The notes under the pieces are model-generated. The model ran no database searches and was not told the DNA's origin. It saw only the letters and a program-made list of their open reading frames with translations. Shown piece by piece: positions 6,192 through 35,044 of a DNA stretch of 47,775 nt. The stretch is taken from the sequence record PZ445409.1; one strand, 5' to 3'. Numbering within the stretch: position 1 is the stretch's first letter; each line of letters begins with the position of its first letter. Source of the stretch: a phage. A program made the position numbers and the translations under genes.

Positions 6192-6208
6192 TTTAACAAA
6201 AAGTGCTA
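6192..6208 (+). promoter_or_regulatory. inverted copy of conserved element upstream of capsid gene
   Basis: TTTAACAAAAAGTGCTA flanked by TTGCAC (6185-6190) and TATCAT (6207-6212) with 16-bp spacing; followed by hairpin+T-run 6215-6241. Confidence 0.45.
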
Positions 6209-9948: not shown

Positions 9949-9966
9949 TTTTAACAAAAAGTGCTA
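9949..9966 (+). promoter_or_regulatory. inverted copy of conserved element abutting RBS of chaperone G
   Basis: TTTTAACAAAAAGTGCTA ends 2 nt before AAGGAG RBS; 15 nt before ATG. Confidence 0.45.
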
Positions 9967-30104: not shown

Positions 30105-30523
30105 TGGCTATAACTGATAAAGGCGATTATCTTGAGTTTTACGAAAGGGATCCAACCGACACGAGAAGGGAAGTTAATCACCAGATAGATAGTTTTCAGT
30201 GGTTGACTTATGCTCATCCTTATTTGCTGGCGTGGCATACGGTAAACGAGAATGAGAAGTCTAAAGCAACGGCGATGATTGATCAGCAGTCCGGCTTGGT
30301 TAAGGGAGTAAGCGATTTCATCATCCTGATTGGTTTAAACGGAAAATATCCCTTTGCGGCGATTGAGATCAAACGAGTGAATAAATCAGGCAAGGGGAAA
30401 GCATCACCAGTCAGCGATGAACAAAAGGCTTTTTTGCGTCGCGTTCGCAGCTTAGGAGGATTCGCTGCGGTAGCCTACGGATTCAATCAGTTTAAGTTGG
30501 CTATTGAATACATGCTTAAATAG
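30104..30523 (+). CDS. VRR-NUC domain nuclease
   Basis: 139-aa ORF, TAATG overlap with helicase; PD-(D/E)XK-like DFIIL...EIKR...QKAFL. Confidence 0.6.
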   Translation: MAITDKGDYLEFYERDPTDTRREVNHQIDSFQWLTYAHPYLLAWHTVNENEKSKATAMIDQQSGLVKGVSDFIILIGLNGKYPFAAIEIKRVNKSGKGKASPVSDEQKAFLRRVRSLGGFAAVAYGFNQFKLAIEYMLK

Positions 30524-30563
30524 CACTTTTTGTTAAAACTGGCGCGATGGATTGCGCCATAAT
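30521..30563 (+). promoter_or_regulatory. phage promoter unit (element + spacer + CATAAT)
   Basis: TAGCACTTTTTGTTAAAAC begins with VRR-NUC stop TAG; hexamer 30558-30563; upstream of dam. Confidence 0.6.
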
Positions 30564-30603: not shown

Positions 30604-31329
30604 ATGGCTAAAGATATTTTAGATAAAGACACCCATGACGCATTCGTTAGCTTTGAGCAGTTGGAGAGAGAAACGTTTATAGGGAATGCCCTTACAACTG
30701 GAGGCCATTACCAGGCAGTAAAGCCAAATCAATATTATAAGGTAAGTGGCAACCGATACGCTGGAAGCACCACGCCGGACGTTGTGCGCGATATGTGGAG
30801 CACGCCTCAAGAGATTGTGGAGTGGATGGAATCAGAATTTGGTGAATACGATCTCGACGCGGCAGCAAGCCAGGAAAACGCAGTTTGCGAGAAGTTCTAT
30901 AGCAAGGAAACAAACTGCTTAAAGCGTTGGCGGGGTAGCAACAAGCACGTATGGCTTAACCCGCCGTACAGCAACCCAACTCCATTTATCAAGAAAGCAA
31001 TTGAGCAAATGGAGCACAACAACCAAATTGATGTTTTGTTGCCAGCCGACAACTCTACAGCATGGTTTTATGATGCGCAGAAAAACGCGGCTGAAATCAT
31101 CTGGATCACTGGCGAGGTTTACGAAGAGGGTGGAGTAGAATACTCCCGCACCGGAAGAATCGCCTTTGTGTCTGGATTGACTGGCGAGCCTGTACAGGGC
31201 AACAACAAGGGGGGCGTGATTTTTGTCATGCGAAAACTTAAAGAAGGCGAGGAGCAGAAAACGCGATACGTTAAGATCAGCGATATTTGCCCTTCTGTAA
31301 CCGAACGCCGCGCGCGCAAACGGAGCTAA
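30604..31329 (+). CDS. dam: DNA N6-adenine methyltransferase (Dam-like)
   Basis: 241-aa ORF from ATG 30604 (GGAG RBS 9 nt upstream; track start 30577); NPPY motif (WLNPPYSN); phage Dam family. Confidence 0.75.
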   Translation: MAKDILDKDTHDAFVSFEQLERETFIGNALTTGGHYQAVKPNQYYKVSGNRYAGSTTPDVVRDMWSTPQEIVEWMESEFGEYDLDAAASQENAVCEKFYSKETNCLKRWRGSNKHVWLNPPYSNPTPFIKKAIEQMEHNNQIDVLLPADNSTAWFYDAQKNAAEIIWITGEVYEEGGVEYSRTGRIAFVSGLTGEPVQGNNKGGVIFVMRKLKEGEEQKTRYVKISDICPSVTERRARKRS

Positions 31330-31333
31330 CACG

Positions 31334-31591
31334 ATGAAAAAAGAGAGAAGCGTTTATTTAAATGAAACTGGCGAATGGTTGTTATTTCGCGCTATGGTGT
31401 GCGATGCACTTGATAAAAATCCTAACGTGAAAAAGATGATTGATTGCGATCCGTGGGAATTTTCAAGCGCATTAGATATGAGCTTTGAGGAGACAAGAAA
31501 ACTCCCGCTTGAAAAATGGCACGAACAAATCAGAAATGACATGCAAGAGTTTGTTGATTCGTGGAATTTTCAGCACGGAATGATCCACTAA
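31334..31591 (+). CDS. hypothetical protein
   Basis: 85-aa ORF with GGAG RBS; its TAA stop is directly followed by promoter unit 31592-31634. Confidence 0.5.
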   Translation: MKKERSVYLNETGEWLLFRAMVCDALDKNPNVKKMIDCDPWEFSSALDMSFEETRKLPLEKWHEQIRNDMQEFVDSWNFQHGMIH

Positions 31592-31634
31592 TAGCACTTT
31601 TTGTTAAAACGCCCGGCCTAGTGTCGGGCATAAT
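31592..31634 (+). promoter_or_regulatory. phage promoter unit (element + spacer + CATAAT)
   Basis: Element directly after TAA stop; 18-bp spacer gcccggcctagtgtcggg identical to the minus-strand unit at 34810-34852. Confidence 0.6.
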
Positions 31635-31667
31635 TATTTCAACGAAGCAAACATGAGGAAATAAAAA

Positions 31668-31847
31668 ATGGTGGTATTCGATAAACGCGCTTTTAATCTT
31701 GCTCAAGAAGTAGCAAAAGGTTCAGTTGATGGCGGTTCAAAGGAAGGGTTCCAGTTTGATTGGGAGATCGCAATGTTTTTACTGAAAGTTGCATACGGTC
31801 ACGCGCCAATTGAACAAGCGGAGGCATATTATAAGCATGAAGGTTGA
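31668..31847 (+). CDS. hypothetical small protein (59 aa, not in ORF track)
   Basis: ATG 31668 with GAGGA RBS about 35 nt after the promoter hexamer; translated by hand, no internal stops; stop TGA 31845-31847 overlaps next ATG. Confidence 0.4.
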   Translation: MVVFDKRAFNLAQEVAKGSVDGGSKEGFQFDWEIAMFLLKVAYGHAPIEQAEAYYKHEG

Positions 31848-32079
31848 GCAAGGGAGAGAGGCGGTATGGAATCACGCTAAAGAATGCGGTATTGCCGACG
31901 ATATAAAGAAGATCGCGCAATACTTTGATATTGCAGATGTGAGCATAATTAGCGGTGATAAGATGACTTTCCTCAAGGAAAGGCCGCGAAAAATGGTAAG
32001 AGTTCCAGCAGTTCCAACAAAAATTGATTTCAAAGAGGCAATGGCTAAAATCCGAGAGCCTCGCAAATATTATAAATGA
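31837..32079 (+). CDS. hypothetical protein
   Basis: 80-aa ORF from ATG 31837 overlapping upstream ORF (track start 31789). Confidence 0.4.
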   Translation: MKVEQGREAVWNHAKECGIADDIKKIAQYFDIADVSIISGDKMTFLKERPRKMVRVPAVPTKIDFKEAMAKIREPRKYYK

Positions 32080-32173
32080 GGATAGTTATCATGTGGCGCT
32101 TGTTTGTTCTACCGTTACACGTTATCATCGCTGTTACAGTTATGTACCATATAGTAATGAGATAGGTAGCAGA

Positions 32174-33289
32174 ATGAAAAATGTAAAAATTACAGATGAG
32201 CAATTCAAGATCGAACGGGCGGCAGGTAAGACATATAAACAGATCGCTCAAGAGTACGGAATGAATGTGAGAAGCGTCGAGCGTCGCGCGGCGCGTCTTG
32301 CAAAGCAAGGACAGTTATCGACCATTGGAGCGCCTGGTTTTGGTGTTCATGGTGAGTCAGTAATGACCGACAAAGAAGGCAACATAATCCTCAAGTGGAC
32401 CAAAACCAGCAAGGACAAAGAGCAATTAGAAGCATTGATGCGCGCAGCAATGGAGGCGTTTAGCGAGGAAGTGCCGCGATTAGATCCAGTTCCATTGCAG
32501 GAGCGTGACTATAATGAAACGCTTTCATTGTATCCGATCTTTGACATGCACTTAGGCGCTATGGCCCATAAGCACGAATGCGGCGAAAATTGGGATACTG
32601 CGACGGCGGAGCGCGTTATGAATAACTTTATCGACTATGCTTTGATGTGCGCACCTGACAGTGAAAAGGCTGTTATCCTGATTGGTGGCGACATGCTTCA
32701 TAGCGATGGCCTGGAGGCTGTGACCCCTGCAAGCGGTCACGTACTTGATCAAGATAGCCGATATGCAAAATTGGTTTACGTTGCAATACGTGCAATGCGC
32801 CGCGCAATTAATAAAATGCTGTTAAAGCATAAACATGTTGAGGTCCAGATCGTTGAGGGCAATCACGACCAATCAGGAATGATTTGGCTACGCGCAGCAA
32901 TGGCGGCAGCATATGATAACGAGCCGCGCGTTTACGTTGATGTTTCTCCTCGCGTTGTTCACCACACGCAATACGGAAAAACTTTCCTTGCGTACCATCA
33001 CGGGCACACAGTGCGTAAACCGGAGACTTTGCTAATGATGTGCGCGTCAGATTGGCGGGAGGACTTCGGAAACTCAAAAACGATGTATGCGCACGTAGGG
33101 CACTGGCATCACCAGACCGTGACGGAAACGTCGCTTGGGATCGTGGAGGTACATAGCACCCTGGCGGCAAAAGACGCATACGCCGCGCGCGGTGGCTGGA
33201 GATCTCGACGCCGTGCAGCGGTTATCATTTACGACAAAGAGCATGGAGAAGTTGGGCGATTTGTTCACTATCCAGAAATGATGAATTGA
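32174..33289 (+). CDS. HTH domain fused to calcineurin-like metallophosphoesterase
   Basis: 371-aa ORF from ATG 32174; N-terminal sigma-70-region-4/resolvase-type HTH (KTYKQIAQEYGMNVRSVERRAARL); phosphoesterase motifs DMH, GGDMLHSDG, GNHD, GHWHH. Confidence 0.6.
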   Translation: MKNVKITDEQFKIERAAGKTYKQIAQEYGMNVRSVERRAARLAKQGQLSTIGAPGFGVHGESVMTDKEGNIILKWTKTSKDKEQLEALMRAAMEAFSEEVPRLDPVPLQERDYNETLSLYPIFDMHLGAMAHKHECGENWDTATAERVMNNFIDYALMCAPDSEKAVILIGGDMLHSDGLEAVTPASGHVLDQDSRYAKLVYVAIRAMRRAINKMLLKHKHVEVQIVEGNHDQSGMIWLRAAMAAAYDNEPRVYVDVSPRVVHHTQYGKTFLAYHHGHTVRKPETLLMMCASDWREDFGNSKTMYAHVGHWHHQTVTETSLGIVEVHSTLAAKDAYAARGGWRSRRRAAVIIYDKEHGEVGRFVHYPEMMN

Positions 33290-33335
33290 TGAATTTTTAT
33301 TTAAATCAATGACAAATTAAATCAAAAACTTGCAA

Positions 33336-33365
33336 AGGGGCGGCGTTTGTCGCCTCTTTTTTTTG
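33336..33365 (+). terminator. intrinsic terminator before lysis cassette
   Basis: Imperfect hairpin aggggcggcgtttgtcgcctct + T8. Confidence 0.5.
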
Positions 33366-33435
33366 TTTAAATTTTTATCATGTGCGTTTATTATGCGGTT
33401 AATATATTGACTTTAATTAATATGGAGCATTAAAA

Positions 33436-33651
33436 ATGAAAGATTTTATTAACGCAGCTACAGCCGGATCTGGCGGTTCATCTATCGCAAGCGCCGCTAC
33501 AGGTCAGTTAACCATTGCTATTGCCAGCTTTGTTTTAATGGCTGCATTCGGTGCGTGGGGTGCTTACCTTCGCTGGCGTGATAGTAAAAAATTCCACGAG
33601 GCGATCGAAAAAGGTGATATTCAAAAAGCTATTGAAATCAGGGGCAAGTAA
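33436..33651 (+). CDS. holin
   Basis: 71-aa ORF, GGAG RBS; Gly/Ala-rich hydrophobic segment then charged C-terminus; immediately upstream of endolysin with TAATG overlap. Confidence 0.55.
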
Positions 33652-34142
33652 TGAGCATCAAGAACAGGGTGGCGGCGGCGGCCTTTGGCGTTGCGGTTGC
33701 CTTGACTTCTCCACTTCTTGAAGAGATCGAAGGGGTAAGATACAAGCCATACAAAGATATTGCGGGAGTATGGACGGTTTGCGCAGGAATCACCGGACCA
33801 GATGTTATCCTGGGGAAAACGTACACTAAAAAAGAGTGTGATGCTTTGTTGGCTAAGCATATCCAGGTTGCTAAAAAGGAAGTTGACAAGCAGGTTAAGG
33901 TTGACATTCCTGATAGTATGCGTGCAGCAATGTACTCATTCACTTACAATGCAGGTGTGGGAGCTTTCAGAAATTCAACAATGCTGAAACTCATCAACCA
34001 GGGGAAATTAAACGAGGCTTGCGATCAGCTTTATCGTTGGACGTATTACCATAACCCCAAAACAGGAAAGCGCGAGAAGTCTAAAGGCTTACTTAACAGG
34101 CGCAAGGTCGAATACAAATATTGCACAATGGATCTGAAATGA
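33651..34142 (+). CDS. SAR endolysin (T4 lysozyme-like muramidase)
   Basis: 163-aa ORF; weakly hydrophobic Ala/Gly-rich N-terminal signal-anchor-release segment; E..D..T catalytic spacing (EEIEG..YKD..GVWT). Confidence 0.7.
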
Positions 34143-34534
34143 TGAAGAAATTTTTATTTACACCAATCGCAATGGCGGTGATCTTGTCTGGATGTTCAAG
34201 CGTTACGCCACTGACCGGATTAATCGGCAGTAAGCCGGAAATAACAGCACAGGCTGGCGCGGAGAACGTGAAGCAGACAGTTGGCATTACAGCAAAGCAG
34301 GACGCCAGCACAAAACAGGAAACCACAATAAAGGAATCTGCGGTTGACAAGGTGGACACGTCCAGCAAGAAGGATTTCACAACATCAACCATTCAGGCCA
34401 ATACCATCAAGGCAGACAAAATTCAGGTCGTGCAGGGTAATAACGGCAGATGGTACGATCCAATAATCATATGCATGGTTGTGTTCATTGTGCTGATTTG
34501 TCTTTACTGGAGGGAAAAGAAAAAGGAGGCTTAA
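34139..34534 (+). CDS. unimolecular spanin (u-spanin)
   Basis: 131-aa ORF overlapping endolysin stop; N-terminal lipoprotein signal with lipobox LSGC plus C-terminal transmembrane helix ([16 protein letters not shown]); T1 gp11-like architecture. Confidence 0.7.
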
Positions 34535-34550
34535 TGCCTCCTTTATTTTT
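34525..34550. terminator. bidirectional intrinsic terminator after spanin / after 34549-34773
   Basis: A-run, hairpin ggaggcttaatgcctcc, T-run; convergent genes on both sides. Confidence 0.65.
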
Positions 34551-34773
34551 ATGCGTCGGGCCACATATGAGTTTCGTTTGTTGGCTTGTTCGATTCGTCG
34601 TACTGCCTTACTTCAATGCTGCAAGTGTCGCCGTACAGTTCTGCAATCTTGCGCTCATTTTCAACCGCCGATTGCTCACTCCATCCAAAATCCCTGTCGT
34701 AAATTGTCGGTATTTCAGCAGAAGATCCGTTGTCATGATTATATACGCGAACTACTAAAAACTTGCTGGACAT
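34549..34773 (-). CDS. hypothetical protein
   Basis: 74-aa ORF with AAAGG RBS; first gene after promoter unit 34810-34852; ends at bidirectional terminator. Confidence 0.5.
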   Translation of the reverse strand: MSSKFLVVRVYNHDNGSSAEIPTIYDRDFGWSEQSAVENERKIAELYGDTCSIEVRQYDESNKPTNETHMWPDA

Positions 34774-34809
34774 AATTTTACCTTTTGGTTGTTTCGTTTC
34801 GATGAAACA

Positions 34810-34852
34810 AATATACCCGACACTAGGCCGGGCGTTTTAACAAAAAATGCTA
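34810..34852 (-). promoter_or_regulatory. phage promoter unit (element + TATATT)
   Basis: Minus strand TAGCATTTTTTGTTAAAAC + gcccggcctagtgtcggg + TATATT; inverted near-identical copy of 31592-31628. Confidence 0.6.
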
Positions 34853-35044
34853 TTCCATACGCTTTACCGTAACCAGTAATACACCATCATCATTGCATAA
34901 AACATGTTCAGTGGTGCTAAAAGCGCGCATATCTGAATAAAGTAGCGTAAGTAAAGCATGAATAAAATCCTCATGTGATATTGAATTTACGGCGCAGTGC
35001 TTCAAGATCTTGTCTATTAGCTTTTGCCTGGAACAATTCATCAT
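34850..35044 (-). CDS. hypothetical small ORF (alternative frame)
   Basis: 64-aa ORF whose TAG stop is the TAG of the conserved promoter element (as for several other genes); overlaps 3-prime end of 34971-35366 by 74 nt in another frame. Confidence 0.25.
   Translation of the reverse strand: MMNCSRQKLIDKILKHCAVNSISHEDFIHALLTLLYSDMRAFSTTEHVLCNDDGVLLVTVKRME

What the first reader, a model, noticed from the sequence alone, without database searches (positions are those of the whole stretch)
31592..33289. Operon of two small ORFs plus an HTH-fused metallophosphoesterase, directly upstream of the lysis cassette
Promoter unit 31592-31634 drives a 59-aa ORF (31668-31847, absent from the ORF track), an overlapping 80-aa ORF and a 371-aa protein whose N-terminus is a sigma-70-region-4/resolvase-type HTH and whose C-terminal 250 aa carry calcineurin-like phosphoesterase motifs (DMH, GGDMLHSDG, GNHD, GHWHH), resembling Mre11/SbcD-type nucleases more than PPP phosphatases. 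A DNA-binding HTH fused to a metallophosphoesterase suggests a targeted nuclease or phosphodiesterase (host DNA degradation, recombination processing or signalling-nucleotide hydrolysis). Direct GTTATCAT repeats lie in the 95-nt leader before the gene (32080-32173).
Basis: partly seen in the sequence, partly recalled or inferred. Interest (0 to 1): 0.6.

Follow-up and report, generated by a model that had tools for sequence, protein, structure and literature searches.

The report
Phage HTH-fused Mre11-like phosphoesterase operon
A T1-like coliphage carries a small operon whose main product joins a DNA-binding helix-turn-helix to an apparently active Mre11/SbcD-like metal-dependent phosphoesterase; the gene is real and found in thousands of phages, but databases already list it and nobody has tested what it does.

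Summary
The window is a Drexlerviridae (Warwickvirus) genome, 99.6% identical to phage tonijn. Positions 31592-33369 form one transcription unit:
- a stereotyped promoter cassette;
- ORFs of 59 and 80 aa;
- a previously unnoticed, conserved 24-aa hydrophobic mini-ORF inside the supposed "leader";
- a 371-aa protein;
- a strong terminator ahead of the lysis genes.

The family is PHROG 704 ("DNA repair exonuclease"). It has more than 5,000 clusters at 50% identity and occurs in 2,047 phage records, none characterised. It has no capping domain and no Rad50/SbcC partner, and its gene neighbourhood varies, so the lysis adjacency carries no functional meaning.

The "promoter unit" is the published 21-nt Drexlerviridae repeat. 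It resembles PeSL cassettes and also occurs in a T4-like Slopekvirus.

Best reading: a stand-alone, DNA-tethered Mre11-like nuclease of the phage DNA-metabolism gene class. Fold and domains are shown; substrate and role are inferred. Interest is modest.

The parts
31590..31635 (+). Promoter cassette. It comprises the 21-nt Drexlerviridae repeat (core TAGCACTTTTTGTTAAA, 31592-31608), a 22-nt spacer holding the GC hairpin GCCCGGCCTAGTGTCGGGC (31611-31629), and the -10-like CATAAT (31629-31634). The stop codon of the upstream 85-aa ORF (31589-31591) abuts the repeat.
   Evidence: There are 16 copies in the window against 1.6 expected. Spacing to the -10-like hexamer and to the next start codon is fixed. 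The element is published as an unexplained 21-nt repeat in phage TLS (PMC11447400). The terminator scan also flags the hairpin.
31668..31847 (+). 59-aa ORF of unknown function, with a GAGGAA RBS.
   Evidence: ORF list. phrog_2180 at E 4e-15. Annotated as gp30 in tonijn. No Pfam, NCBIfam or PADLOC match.
31837..32079 (+). 80-aa ORF of unknown function; its start overlaps the end of the 59-aa ORF by 11 nt.
   Evidence: phrog_2817 at E 1.6e-34. Annotated as gp31 in tonijn.
32091..32165 (+). Unannotated 24-aa hydrophobic mini-ORF, MWRLFVLPLHVIIAVTVMYHIVMR, with a GAGGA RBS 8 nt upstream. It occupies the supposed 'leader'. The GTTATCAT copy at 32121 lies inside it; the copy at 32085 spans its RBS spacer and start codon.
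   Evidence: Hydrophobic ORFs of 23-25 aa (GRAVY 1.5-1.9) sit at the same position in PGN590, Klebsiella vB_Kp_H02, PCEc3 and T1, although the DNA is only about 62% identical. As RNA the leader does not fold better than shuffled sequence (z 0.64).
32174..32308 (+). N-terminal HTH domain of the 371-aa protein (residues 1-45; helices 8-16, 21-28, 32-44).
32339..32470 (+). Family-specific beta-hairpin plus long helix (residues 56-99) with invariant S62, G69, W75 and near-invariant K77, D81. It has no structural match of its own.
32519..33289 (+). Metallophosphoesterase domain (residues 116-371) plus stop codon. Motif residues are D124-x-H126, G-D173-x-x-H176, G-N230-H231-D232, H276 and G-H310-x-H312. 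A conserved but low-pLDDT loop spans residues 177-200.
33334..33369 (+). Intrinsic terminator closing the operon: an 11-bp stem, a 4-nt loop and the tail TTTTTGTTTA.
34793..34854 (-). Near-twin of the promoter cassette (89% identical over 62 nt, with the same 19-nt hairpin) on the opposite strand beyond the lysis genes. It faces a 74-aa ORF. It is related to the operon but not part of it.
   Evidence: (I1).

Best explanation
The operon belongs to the phage's DNA-metabolism (early/middle) gene class.

Shown:
- Its main product has two parts: a small resolvase/LuxR/sigma-4-type HTH, and a catalytically intact binuclear metallophosphoesterase whose fold and motif II (G-D-x-x-H) are closest to the Mre11/SbcD/PolD-DP1 nuclease branch.
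- It has no capping domain and no Rad50/SbcC partner.

Inferred:
- The HTH, or another nucleic-acid-binding module in relatives, tethers the enzyme to DNA.
- The metal centre (probably Mn2+) then cuts phosphodiester bonds in DNA as an exo- or endonuclease. Likely substrates are DNA ends, nicks or branched intermediates arising during phage replication and recombination, or host DNA.
- It acts on its own.
- Transcription starts at the repeat-type promoter cassette at 31592-31634 and stops at the terminator at 33334-33369. The lysis genes are therefore a separate unit.
For: - Identity and operon structure.
- Selection on catalysis: D124, H126, D173, N230, H231, H276 and H312 are invariant in both alignments (126 homologues, and 59 more divergent representatives). 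H176, D232 and H310 are invariant in the 126 and nearly so in the 59. The enzymatic activity is therefore under selection.
- Sequence: in the PDB profile search, the only hits to this domain are T. maritima Mre11/SbcD, aligning tDlHlG to SDWHLG and lgDflHsDg to TGDLLHSRN.
- HTH.
- Exchangeable N-terminus: in relatives the N-terminal module is replaced by LysR, MarR, Fis or GerE-type HTHs, or by a zinc ribbon, while the enzyme core is kept. This fits an exchangeable nucleic-acid-targeting module.
- Co-regulation: the same repeat-type promoter precedes the helicase and Dam genes.
- Neighbourhood: neighbours are the helicase, VRR-NUC and Dam genes. In the temperate phage mEp021 the homologue lies between replication genes and the DnaB helicase. 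A Campylobacter homologue follows DNA ligase.
- Homing endonucleases: HNH or homing-endonuclease genes repeatedly flank the gene. By general knowledge they favour conserved, important targets.
Against: - No member has been assayed. The database names ('DNA repair exonuclease', 'proof-reading exonuclease', 'phosphoesterase') are similarity guesses.
- The sequence matches to Mre11 are not significant (E 0.65).
- This protein scores below the Pfam Metallophos gathering cut-off (16.8 against 21.5 bits).
- There is no capping domain and no Rad50 partner, so Mre11-type mechanics cannot simply be assumed.
- Gene context is heterogeneous, including tail-gene and lysis/terminase neighbourhoods. No conserved pathway can be read from it.
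- The phage already encodes RecE-like, Erf and VRR-NUC functions.
Confidence: 0.45

Rival explanations
1. It is a transcription factor. The HTH binds phage promoters (for example the 21-nt repeat or the 19-nt hairpin palindrome, or late promoters) and switches gene classes. The phosphoesterase domain acts as a sensor or co-regulated enzyme, as in BirA- or NadR-type HTH-enzyme fusions.
For: - The HTH is of the sigma-4/LuxR class.
- In several phages the gene sits at the early/late boundary: before lysis in T1-like phages, before terS in Dhillonvirus, and downstream of NinG (where lambdoid phages carry ninI and Q, from general knowledge) in a lambdoid-like contig.
- The repeat-type promoters lack a -35 element at the normal distance, so they could need a factor.
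- Some depositors call the homologue 'transcriptional regulator'.
Against: - All catalytic residues are under strict conservation, unlike pseudo-enzymes.
- HTH-less homologues exist.
- The repeat is absent from the loci fetched around the gene in Dhillonvirus, Jerseyvirus, mEp021, Proteus, Vibrio and metagenomic carriers.
- The repeat occurs with identical architecture in a T4-like Slopekvirus, which points to recognition by host machinery.
- The gene itself is driven by such a cassette.
Confidence: 0.15
2. It is a counter-defence phosphodiesterase that destroys host immune signalling nucleotides (cyclic oligonucleotides, cNMPs, ADPR-derived signals). The HTH is used for autoregulation or is incidental.
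For: - The gene behaves like a mobile accessory cassette with variable context.
Against: - The nuclease-branch folds score higher and align over more residues.
- An N-terminal nucleic-acid-binding module is kept across the family even though its type changes.
- There is no PADLOC or other defence-related match.
- The family is near-universal in strictly lytic Drexlerviridae and is targeted by homing endonucleases. That is more typical of core functions.
Confidence: 0.1
3. It is a nucleic-acid end-healing enzyme: a 2',3'-cyclic phosphodiesterase or 3'-phosphatase acting on broken RNA or DNA together with the phage polynucleotide kinase. The model is the metallophosphoesterase domain of bacterial Pnkp.
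For: - In Klebsiella vB_Kp_H02 and phage PCEc3 the gene is immediately followed by a polynucleotide kinase gene.
- A Campylobacter homologue follows DNA ligase.
- There is a weak NCBIfam hit to the ligase-associated PdeM (E 0.0045, far below its cut-off).
Against: - In this window and in tonijn the kinase gene is about 12 kb away.
- The adjacency is absent in most other lineages.
- The PdeM match is not significant.
Confidence: 0.1

Closest known systems
Mre11 / SbcD nuclease subunits (and the PolD DP1 3'-5' exonuclease)
   Different: - No C-terminal capping domain; the protein ends with the catalytic domain.
- No Rad50/SbcC ATPase gene in any of the contexts examined.
- It has an N-terminal HTH plus a beta-hairpin/helix module that Mre11, SbcD and DP1 lack.
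- Sequence similarity is not significant (E 0.65).
- A family-specific conserved loop spans residues 177-200.
PHROG 704 / VOG9929, the 'DNA repair exonuclease / putative phosphoesterase' of T1-like, Jersey-like, Dhillon-like and other phages
   Same: This protein is a full-length member (E 1e-148). It is 99.7% identical to tonijn gp32 and 55% to the T1 homologue. TLS gp66, named 'proof-reading exonuclease', lies directly upstream of the TLS holin and so appears to be the same gene.
   Different: Nothing differs; it is the same family. The family name is an unverified similarity-based label.
Lambda NinI / PPP-family Ser/Thr phosphatases
   Same: They belong to the same superfamily. In lambda, NinI also lies near the lysis genes (from general knowledge).
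PeSL composite promoter-terminator cassettes of T4-like phages (PMC2839356, PMC4122927) and the 21-nt TLS repeat (PMC11447400); this comparison concerns the 'promoter unit'
   Same: - Short stereotyped cassettes combine promoter elements with a GC stem-loop.
- They are repeated before many small early genes.
- The TLS consensus aaATAGCACnnnTTGnTAAAA matches the element here.
- The same cassette occurs in the T4-like Slopekvirus phiKp_1.
   Different: - Published PeSL promoters have a 17-nt spacer. Here the TTGNTA to -10 distance is fixed at 22 nt and the hairpin sits inside that spacer.
- Promoter activity has not been shown experimentally.

Membership tests
Calcineurin-like metallophosphoesterase superfamily (Pfam PF00149 clan) | Five motifs supplying the binuclear metal site: D-x-H, G-D, G-N-H-[DE], H, G-H-x-H | tested here: met
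   D124/H126, D173, N230/H231/D232, H276 and H310/H312 are present and invariant in 126 homologues.
Calcineurin-like metallophosphoesterase superfamily (Pfam PF00149 clan) | Alpha/beta sandwich fold | tested here: met
Calcineurin-like metallophosphoesterase superfamily (Pfam PF00149 clan) | Score above the Pfam gathering threshold | tested here: not met
   16.8 bits against a cut-off of 21.5. 18 of 59 relatives match at E <= 0.01. The family is a divergent branch.
Calcineurin-like metallophosphoesterase superfamily (Pfam PF00149 clan) | Metal-dependent phosphoester hydrolysis | not testable with these tools
   Needs biochemistry.
Mre11/SbcD nucleases | Nuclease-type catalytic domain with a histidine in motif II (G-D-x-x-H) | tested here: inconclusive
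Mre11/SbcD nucleases | Capping domain following the nuclease domain | tested here: not met
   The model ends with the catalytic domain at residue 371. The extra elements are N-terminal.
Mre11/SbcD nucleases | Rad50/SbcC ATPase partner encoded alongside | tested here: not met
   None is present in the near-identical tonijn genome (all but its last ~1.6 kb inspected) or in 15 other contexts.
PPP Ser/Thr phosphatases (lambda NinI type) | GDxVDRG and GNHE motifs | tested here: not met
Tri-helical HTH of the resolvase / LuxR-GerE / sigma-70 region 4 class | Three-helix HTH fold resembling known DNA-binding domains | tested here: met
Tri-helical HTH of the resolvase / LuxR-GerE / sigma-70 region 4 class | Sequence-specific DNA binding | not testable with these tools
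   No target site could be inferred. The repeat is absent from the fetched loci of non-Drexlerviridae carriers.
Sigma-70 family sigma factors | Region 2 (-10 recognition and core binding) in addition to region 4 | tested here: not met
   Only a region-4-like HTH of about 45 residues is present; the rest is the enzyme.
PHROG 704 | Full-length profile match | tested here: met
   E 1.3e-148, residues 5-370 against profile positions 3-389 of 390.
PeSL-type composite promoter/stem-loop cassettes (for the promoter unit) | Repeated cassette that combines a promoter with a GC stem-loop upstream of small early genes | tested here: met
   16 copies, with a -10-like hexamer at fixed spacing in 12 of them and GC hairpins in many spacers. 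The same cassette occurs in a T4-like phage.
PeSL-type composite promoter/stem-loop cassettes (for the promoter unit) | Sigma-70-type -35 and -10 elements with a spacer of about 17 nt | tested here: not met
   The spacer is 22 nt in all copies. The published PeSL consensus uses N17.

The most novel reading that the evidence does not exclude
The family could be a new class of stand-alone phage nuclease, made of an Mre11-like core aimed by an exchangeable DNA-binding module. In T1-like phages it might recognise the repeat-type promoter/stem-loop cassettes, either to regulate them or to cut and recombine at them and so drive cassette shuffling. Alternatively, it might be the still unassigned host-DNA-degradation function of classical T1 genetics; that function is recalled from memory and could not be checked in the paper library.
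Probability: 0.07. Interest if true: 0.75.

Novelty: new variant of a known kind. Interest (0 to 1): 0.38.

Why it matters
This HTH-phosphoesterase is one of the most widespread phage enzymes with no known function. It is found in 2,047 deposited phage genomes and in more than 5,000 protein clusters at 50% identity. It occurs in model and therapeutic phages (T1, TLS, Klebsiella Webervirus, Salmonella Jersey-like phages) and in common E. coli prophages. Databases give it contradictory names: DNA repair exonuclease, proof-reading exonuclease, phosphatase, transcriptional regulator.

Showing that it is an Mre11-like nuclease that works without Rad50 and is targeted by a swappable DNA-binding domain would do two things. 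It would correct thousands of annotations, and it would add a new architecture to the Mre11/SbcD branch. As it stands, the finding is a solid annotation refinement rather than a surprise.

Tried and rejected
- PDB sequence search with the single protein found nothing. The profile search gave only non-significant hits.
- NCBIfam and PADLOC were uninformative.
- Rfam search of 31000-35000 found nothing credible.
- The leader does not fold better than shuffled sequence, so an RNA element was rejected in favour of the mini-ORF.
- GTTATCAT is enriched genome-wide (10 copies against 1.6 expected). The two 'leader' copies lie within or at the start of the mini-ORF, so they were not pursued as binding sites.
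- The small ORFs flanking the Jerseyvirus homologue are not homologous to the 59-aa and 80-aa ORFs here. No conserved small partner exists outside the Drexlerviridae.
- Literature searches for a characterised member, for T1 host-DNA-degradation genetics, for Drexlerviridae transcriptomes and for phage Tn-seq gave nothing on this gene.
- The afdb50 fold library was unavailable.
- The BFVD search returned only uncharacterised phage proteins.
- A sigma-54-like reading of the repeat (TAGCAC-N3-TTGC against TGGCAC-N5-TTGC, the latter recalled from general knowledge) was considered. It was rejected because of the wrong spacing and the conserved -10 element.
- A functional link to the lysis cassette was rejected because of the terminator and the variable synteny.
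Full report
**What the window is**

The region 31300-33400 is 99.6% identical to Escherichia phage tonijn (Drexlerviridae, Tempevirinae, Warwickvirus). It is 97-99% identical to many other T1-like coliphages. Gene order follows tonijn: primase, regulator, SNF2-type helicase, VRR-NUC, Dam, three small ORFs, 'DNA repair exonuclease', holin, endolysin, spanin.

**Check of the observation**

- 59 aa at 31668-31847.
- 80 aa at 31837-32079, overlapping the first by 11 nt.
- 371 aa at 32174-33289.

The two small ORFs are conserved phage protein families (phrog_2180 at E 4e-15, phrog_2817 at E 2e-34). They are annotated in tonijn, so they are real genes of unknown function. They have no Pfam, NCBIfam or PADLOC match. 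The motifs DMH, GGDMLHSDG, GNHD and GHWHH are present.

tonijn annotates the large gene from GTG 32093 (398 aa). Alignments of 17, 59 and 126 homologues all begin at ATG 32174, and most depositors use that start.

**The 'leader' is coding**

I aligned the 95-nt gap with the same gap in PGN590, Klebsiella vB_Kp_H02, PCEc3 and T1. DNA identity is only about 62%. Each phage nevertheless has a 23-25-codon ORF at the same place, with an RBS, encoding a strongly hydrophobic peptide (GRAVY 1.5-1.9). Four of the five end in ...Y.(I/V)(I/V)M.

In the window this ORF runs from ATG 32091 to TAG 32165 and encodes MWRLFVLPLHVIIAVTVMYHIVMR. One GTTATCAT repeat lies inside the ORF; the other spans its RBS spacer and start codon. 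As RNA the region folds no better than shuffled sequence (z 0.64), and Rfam finds nothing. The operon therefore has three small ORFs, and the third is a likely membrane micropeptide that nobody has annotated.

**The promoter unit**

- The sequence at 31592-31634 is one of 16 copies of TAGCACNNNTTGNTAAA in the window, against 1.6 expected by chance.
- In 12 of 16 copies a TAnnnT or CATAAT hexamer lies exactly 22 nt after TTGNTA.
- In 10 of 16 copies an RBS plus start codon follows at +73 to +83.
- The spacer often contains a GC hairpin whose sequence differs between copies.
- The same layout, with a conserved CATCGAAAC-like 5' leader, holds in T1, PGN590, vB_Kp_H02 and PCEc3.

This element is already published. 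The TLS re-annotation paper describes 18 intergenic copies of aaATAGCACnnnTTGnTAAAA. It leaves the function open, suggesting stoperator, enhancer or UP element, and notes only three canonical sigma-70 promoters in TLS (PMC11447400).

A blastn search finds the element in 1,136 phage records, mostly from Klebsiella and Escherichia hosts. Some are roughly 175-kb T4-like phages. In the Slopekvirus phiKp_1 the cassette has the identical architecture in front of a small early-type gene. The closest described concept is the PeSL composite promoter-terminator cassette of T4-like phages (PMC2839356, PMC4122927). PeSLs, however, have a 17-nt spacer.

The 19-nt hairpin GCCCGGCCTAGTGTCGGGC lies inside the spacer. 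A near-twin of the whole cassette sits on the minus strand at 34793-34854.

The simple sigma-70 scan does not call this promoter. It does call the hairpin as terminator-like, and it finds a strong terminator at 33334-33359 followed by a T run, just after the large gene. A separate promoter-like site lies at 33366-33394, ahead of the holin. The operon is thus a self-contained unit and the lysis cassette is another.

**The protein: sequence**

- Pfam gives only sub-threshold hits: Sigma70_r4_2 on residues 17-41 and Metallophos on 143-297.
- PHROG 704 ('DNA repair exonuclease') matches end to end at E 1e-148.
- A profile search of 1.84 billion cluster representatives finds 5,151 clusters at E <= 1e-3 and 1,288 at E <= 1e-30. 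Most are 370-420 aa and match over nearly the full length.
- tblastn finds the gene in 2,047 phage records. These include Escherichia, Klebsiella, Salmonella, Vibrio, Campylobacter, Flavobacterium, Rhodobacter and Ruegeria phages. It is also in the common temperate mEp021-group coliphages and E. coli prophages.
- Across 126 homologues, D124, H126, D173, H176, D178, N230, H231, D232, H276, H310 and H312 are invariant. In 59 more divergent representatives the metal ligands D124, H126, D173, N230, H231, H276 and H312 remain invariant. The enzyme is under selection to stay catalytic.

**The protein: structure**

- AlphaFold2 with the 126-sequence alignment gives pLDDT 87 and pTM 0.72.
- The model has three helices (8-16, 21-28, 32-44), a beta-hairpin (56-80), a long helix (82-99), and then the phosphoesterase sandwich from residue 116 to the C-terminus.
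- The best-conserved stretch of the family, H176 to K199, is the least confident part of the model. This suggests a mobile substrate-binding loop.
- Vps29 and LpxH score about 13, cNMP and glycerophosphodiesterases about 12, and PPP phosphatases about 9.
- A profile search of PDB sequences gives only weak hits. For the enzyme part they are T. maritima Mre11/SbcD, aligned over motif I (SDWHLG) and motif II (GDLLHS) at E 0.65.
- Among relatives the N-terminal module scores as Sigma70_r4, GerE, LysR, MarR, Fis and other HTH types. In one member a zinc ribbon replaces it. A Campylobacter homologue lacks it.

The HTH appears to be an exchangeable targeting module on a conserved enzyme core that starts at about residue 50.

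**Why it is not simply an Mre11**

There is no capping domain after the catalytic domain. No Rad50/SbcC-like gene appears in the tonijn genome (all but its last ~1.6 kb inspected) or in any other context examined. Sequence similarity is not significant. It may work like an Mre11-type nuclease, but it is not a member of that system.

**Genomic context**

- T1-like phages: after helicase/VRR-NUC/Dam and before lysis. The gene is sometimes separated from lysis by a homing endonuclease (T1) or by a polynucleotide kinase.
- Dhillonvirus: between the endolysin and terS.
- Jerseyvirus: an opposite-strand mini-cassette inside the tail genes.
- N4-like vibriophage: near the RNAP2 gene, two genes downstream.
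- mEp021: between replication genes and DnaB.
- Metagenomic contigs: among tail genes, after lysis genes, or after NinG.
- Vibrio K198: between lysis and head genes.
- Campylobacter: after DNA ligase.

No partner gene is conserved. HNH or homing-endonuclease genes recur next to it. The adjacency to lysis in this window therefore carries no functional meaning.

In this phage the operon shares its promoter type with the helicase and Dam units. That places it in the DNA-metabolism expression class.

**Mechanism**

- Shown: the domain identities, an intact metal site under selection, operon boundaries predicted from sequence, and the absence of a Rad50 partner.
- Inferred: that the HTH tethers the enzyme to DNA, that the substrate is DNA, and that the role lies in processing replication or recombination intermediates or in DNA degradation.
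- I put about 0.45 on a DNA-nuclease function.
- Rivals are a transcription regulator (0.15), a signalling-nucleotide phosphodiesterase (0.10) and an end-healing phosphoesterase working with Pnk (0.10). The remainder is unassigned.
- The regulator idea, and specifically binding to the repeat or the 19-nt hairpin, is weakened in two ways. The repeat is absent from the loci fetched around the gene in carriers outside the Drexlerviridae. It is present in a Slopekvirus, which suggests host RNA polymerase recognises it.

**Literature**

No paper in the library characterises a member. TLS gp66, directly upstream of the TLS holin gp67, is called 'proof-reading exonuclease' by similarity only. Searches on T1 genetics, Drexlerviridae transcriptomics, mEp021 and phage Tn-seq gave nothing on this gene.

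**Verdict**

The feature is real, correctly located and largely correctly interpreted at the domain level. It is already catalogued under guessed names and has not been characterised experimentally. Relative to characterised systems it is a new architectural variant of the Mre11/SbcD-type metallophosphoesterases: HTH-fused, stand-alone and without a capping domain. Interest is modest (0.38). It is worth a biochemical look because of its sheer prevalence, but it would not surprise a specialist.

Noticed in passing
window 32091-32165 (+); also L008 2414-2488, L009 2411-2488, L010 2414-2488, L003 4919-4990: An unannotated, conserved 23-25-aa hydrophobic mini-ORF lies between the 80-aa ORF and the phosphoesterase gene in five divergent Drexlerviridae. 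It is probably a membrane micropeptide. It is not annotated in any of the four related records inspected (tonijn, PGN590, vB_Kp_H02, T1).
   Followed up: partly
window, 16 sites: 1567, 6208(-), 9966(-), 20758(-), 26470, 28032, 30521, 31592, 34852(-), 37016(-), 37693(-), 40102(-), 41186(-), 42503, 43804, 45124: The repeat-type cassettes have a fixed 22-nt gap between TTGNTA and the -10-like hexamer (in 12 of 16 copies). That is too long for a normal sigma-70 promoter. The gap often contains a GC hairpin of non-conserved sequence, and a conserved CATCGAAAC-like 5' leader follows. How such promoters are recognised is unexplained.
   Followed up: partly
L018 1501-1580 (Klebsiella phage phiKp_1, Slopekvirus); other ~175-kb T4-like phages: A cassette with the identical architecture (repeat, 22-nt spacer with hairpin, TATAGT, conserved leader) occurs in T4-like myoviruses of the same hosts. 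This suggests a promoter cassette shared or exchanged between unrelated phage families, similar to PeSLs.
   Followed up: partly
window 6192-6208 (-) and 9950-9966 (-): Two repeat cassettes lie antisense within the plus-strand head and tail gene block, between gp01 and the major head gene and between the major tail gene and the tape-measure chaperone. They may drive antisense transcripts or act as protein-binding sites independent of orientation.
   Followed up: no
window 31589-31599 and 30517-30527: The 5' end of the repeat (TAAATAG or TAATAG) supplies the stop codon of the upstream ORF. This is what one would expect if the cassettes are mobile modules that terminate whatever precedes them.
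   Followed up: no
L003 6207-6689; L011 7121-7624; L015 6010-6519; L007 1720-2028 and 3963-4400: HNH or homing-endonuclease genes recur immediately next to the phosphoesterase gene in T1, mEp021 and two vibriophages.
   Followed up: no
window, 10 sites including 32085, 32121, 32913(-), 33221: The octamer GTTATCAT occurs 10 times against 1.6 expected, with four copies within 1.2 kb in and around the phosphoesterase gene. No explanation was found beyond coding context.
   Followed up: partly
BFVD hit A0A291LBL0 (Klebsiella phage vB_KpnM_KpV79): A phage named as a myovirus ('vB_KpnM') carries a 153-aa fragment 41% identical to part of this protein. This hints at exchange of the gene, or pieces of it, between Drexlerviridae and large myoviruses.
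   Followed up: no
L003 4488-4530 (T1): A repeat-like sequence (ATAGCATTAATTGCTAAA, then 22 nt, then TAGCAT) lies inside the T1 homologue of the 80-aa ORF. It could be an internal promoter or a coincidence of the coding sequence.
   Followed up: no
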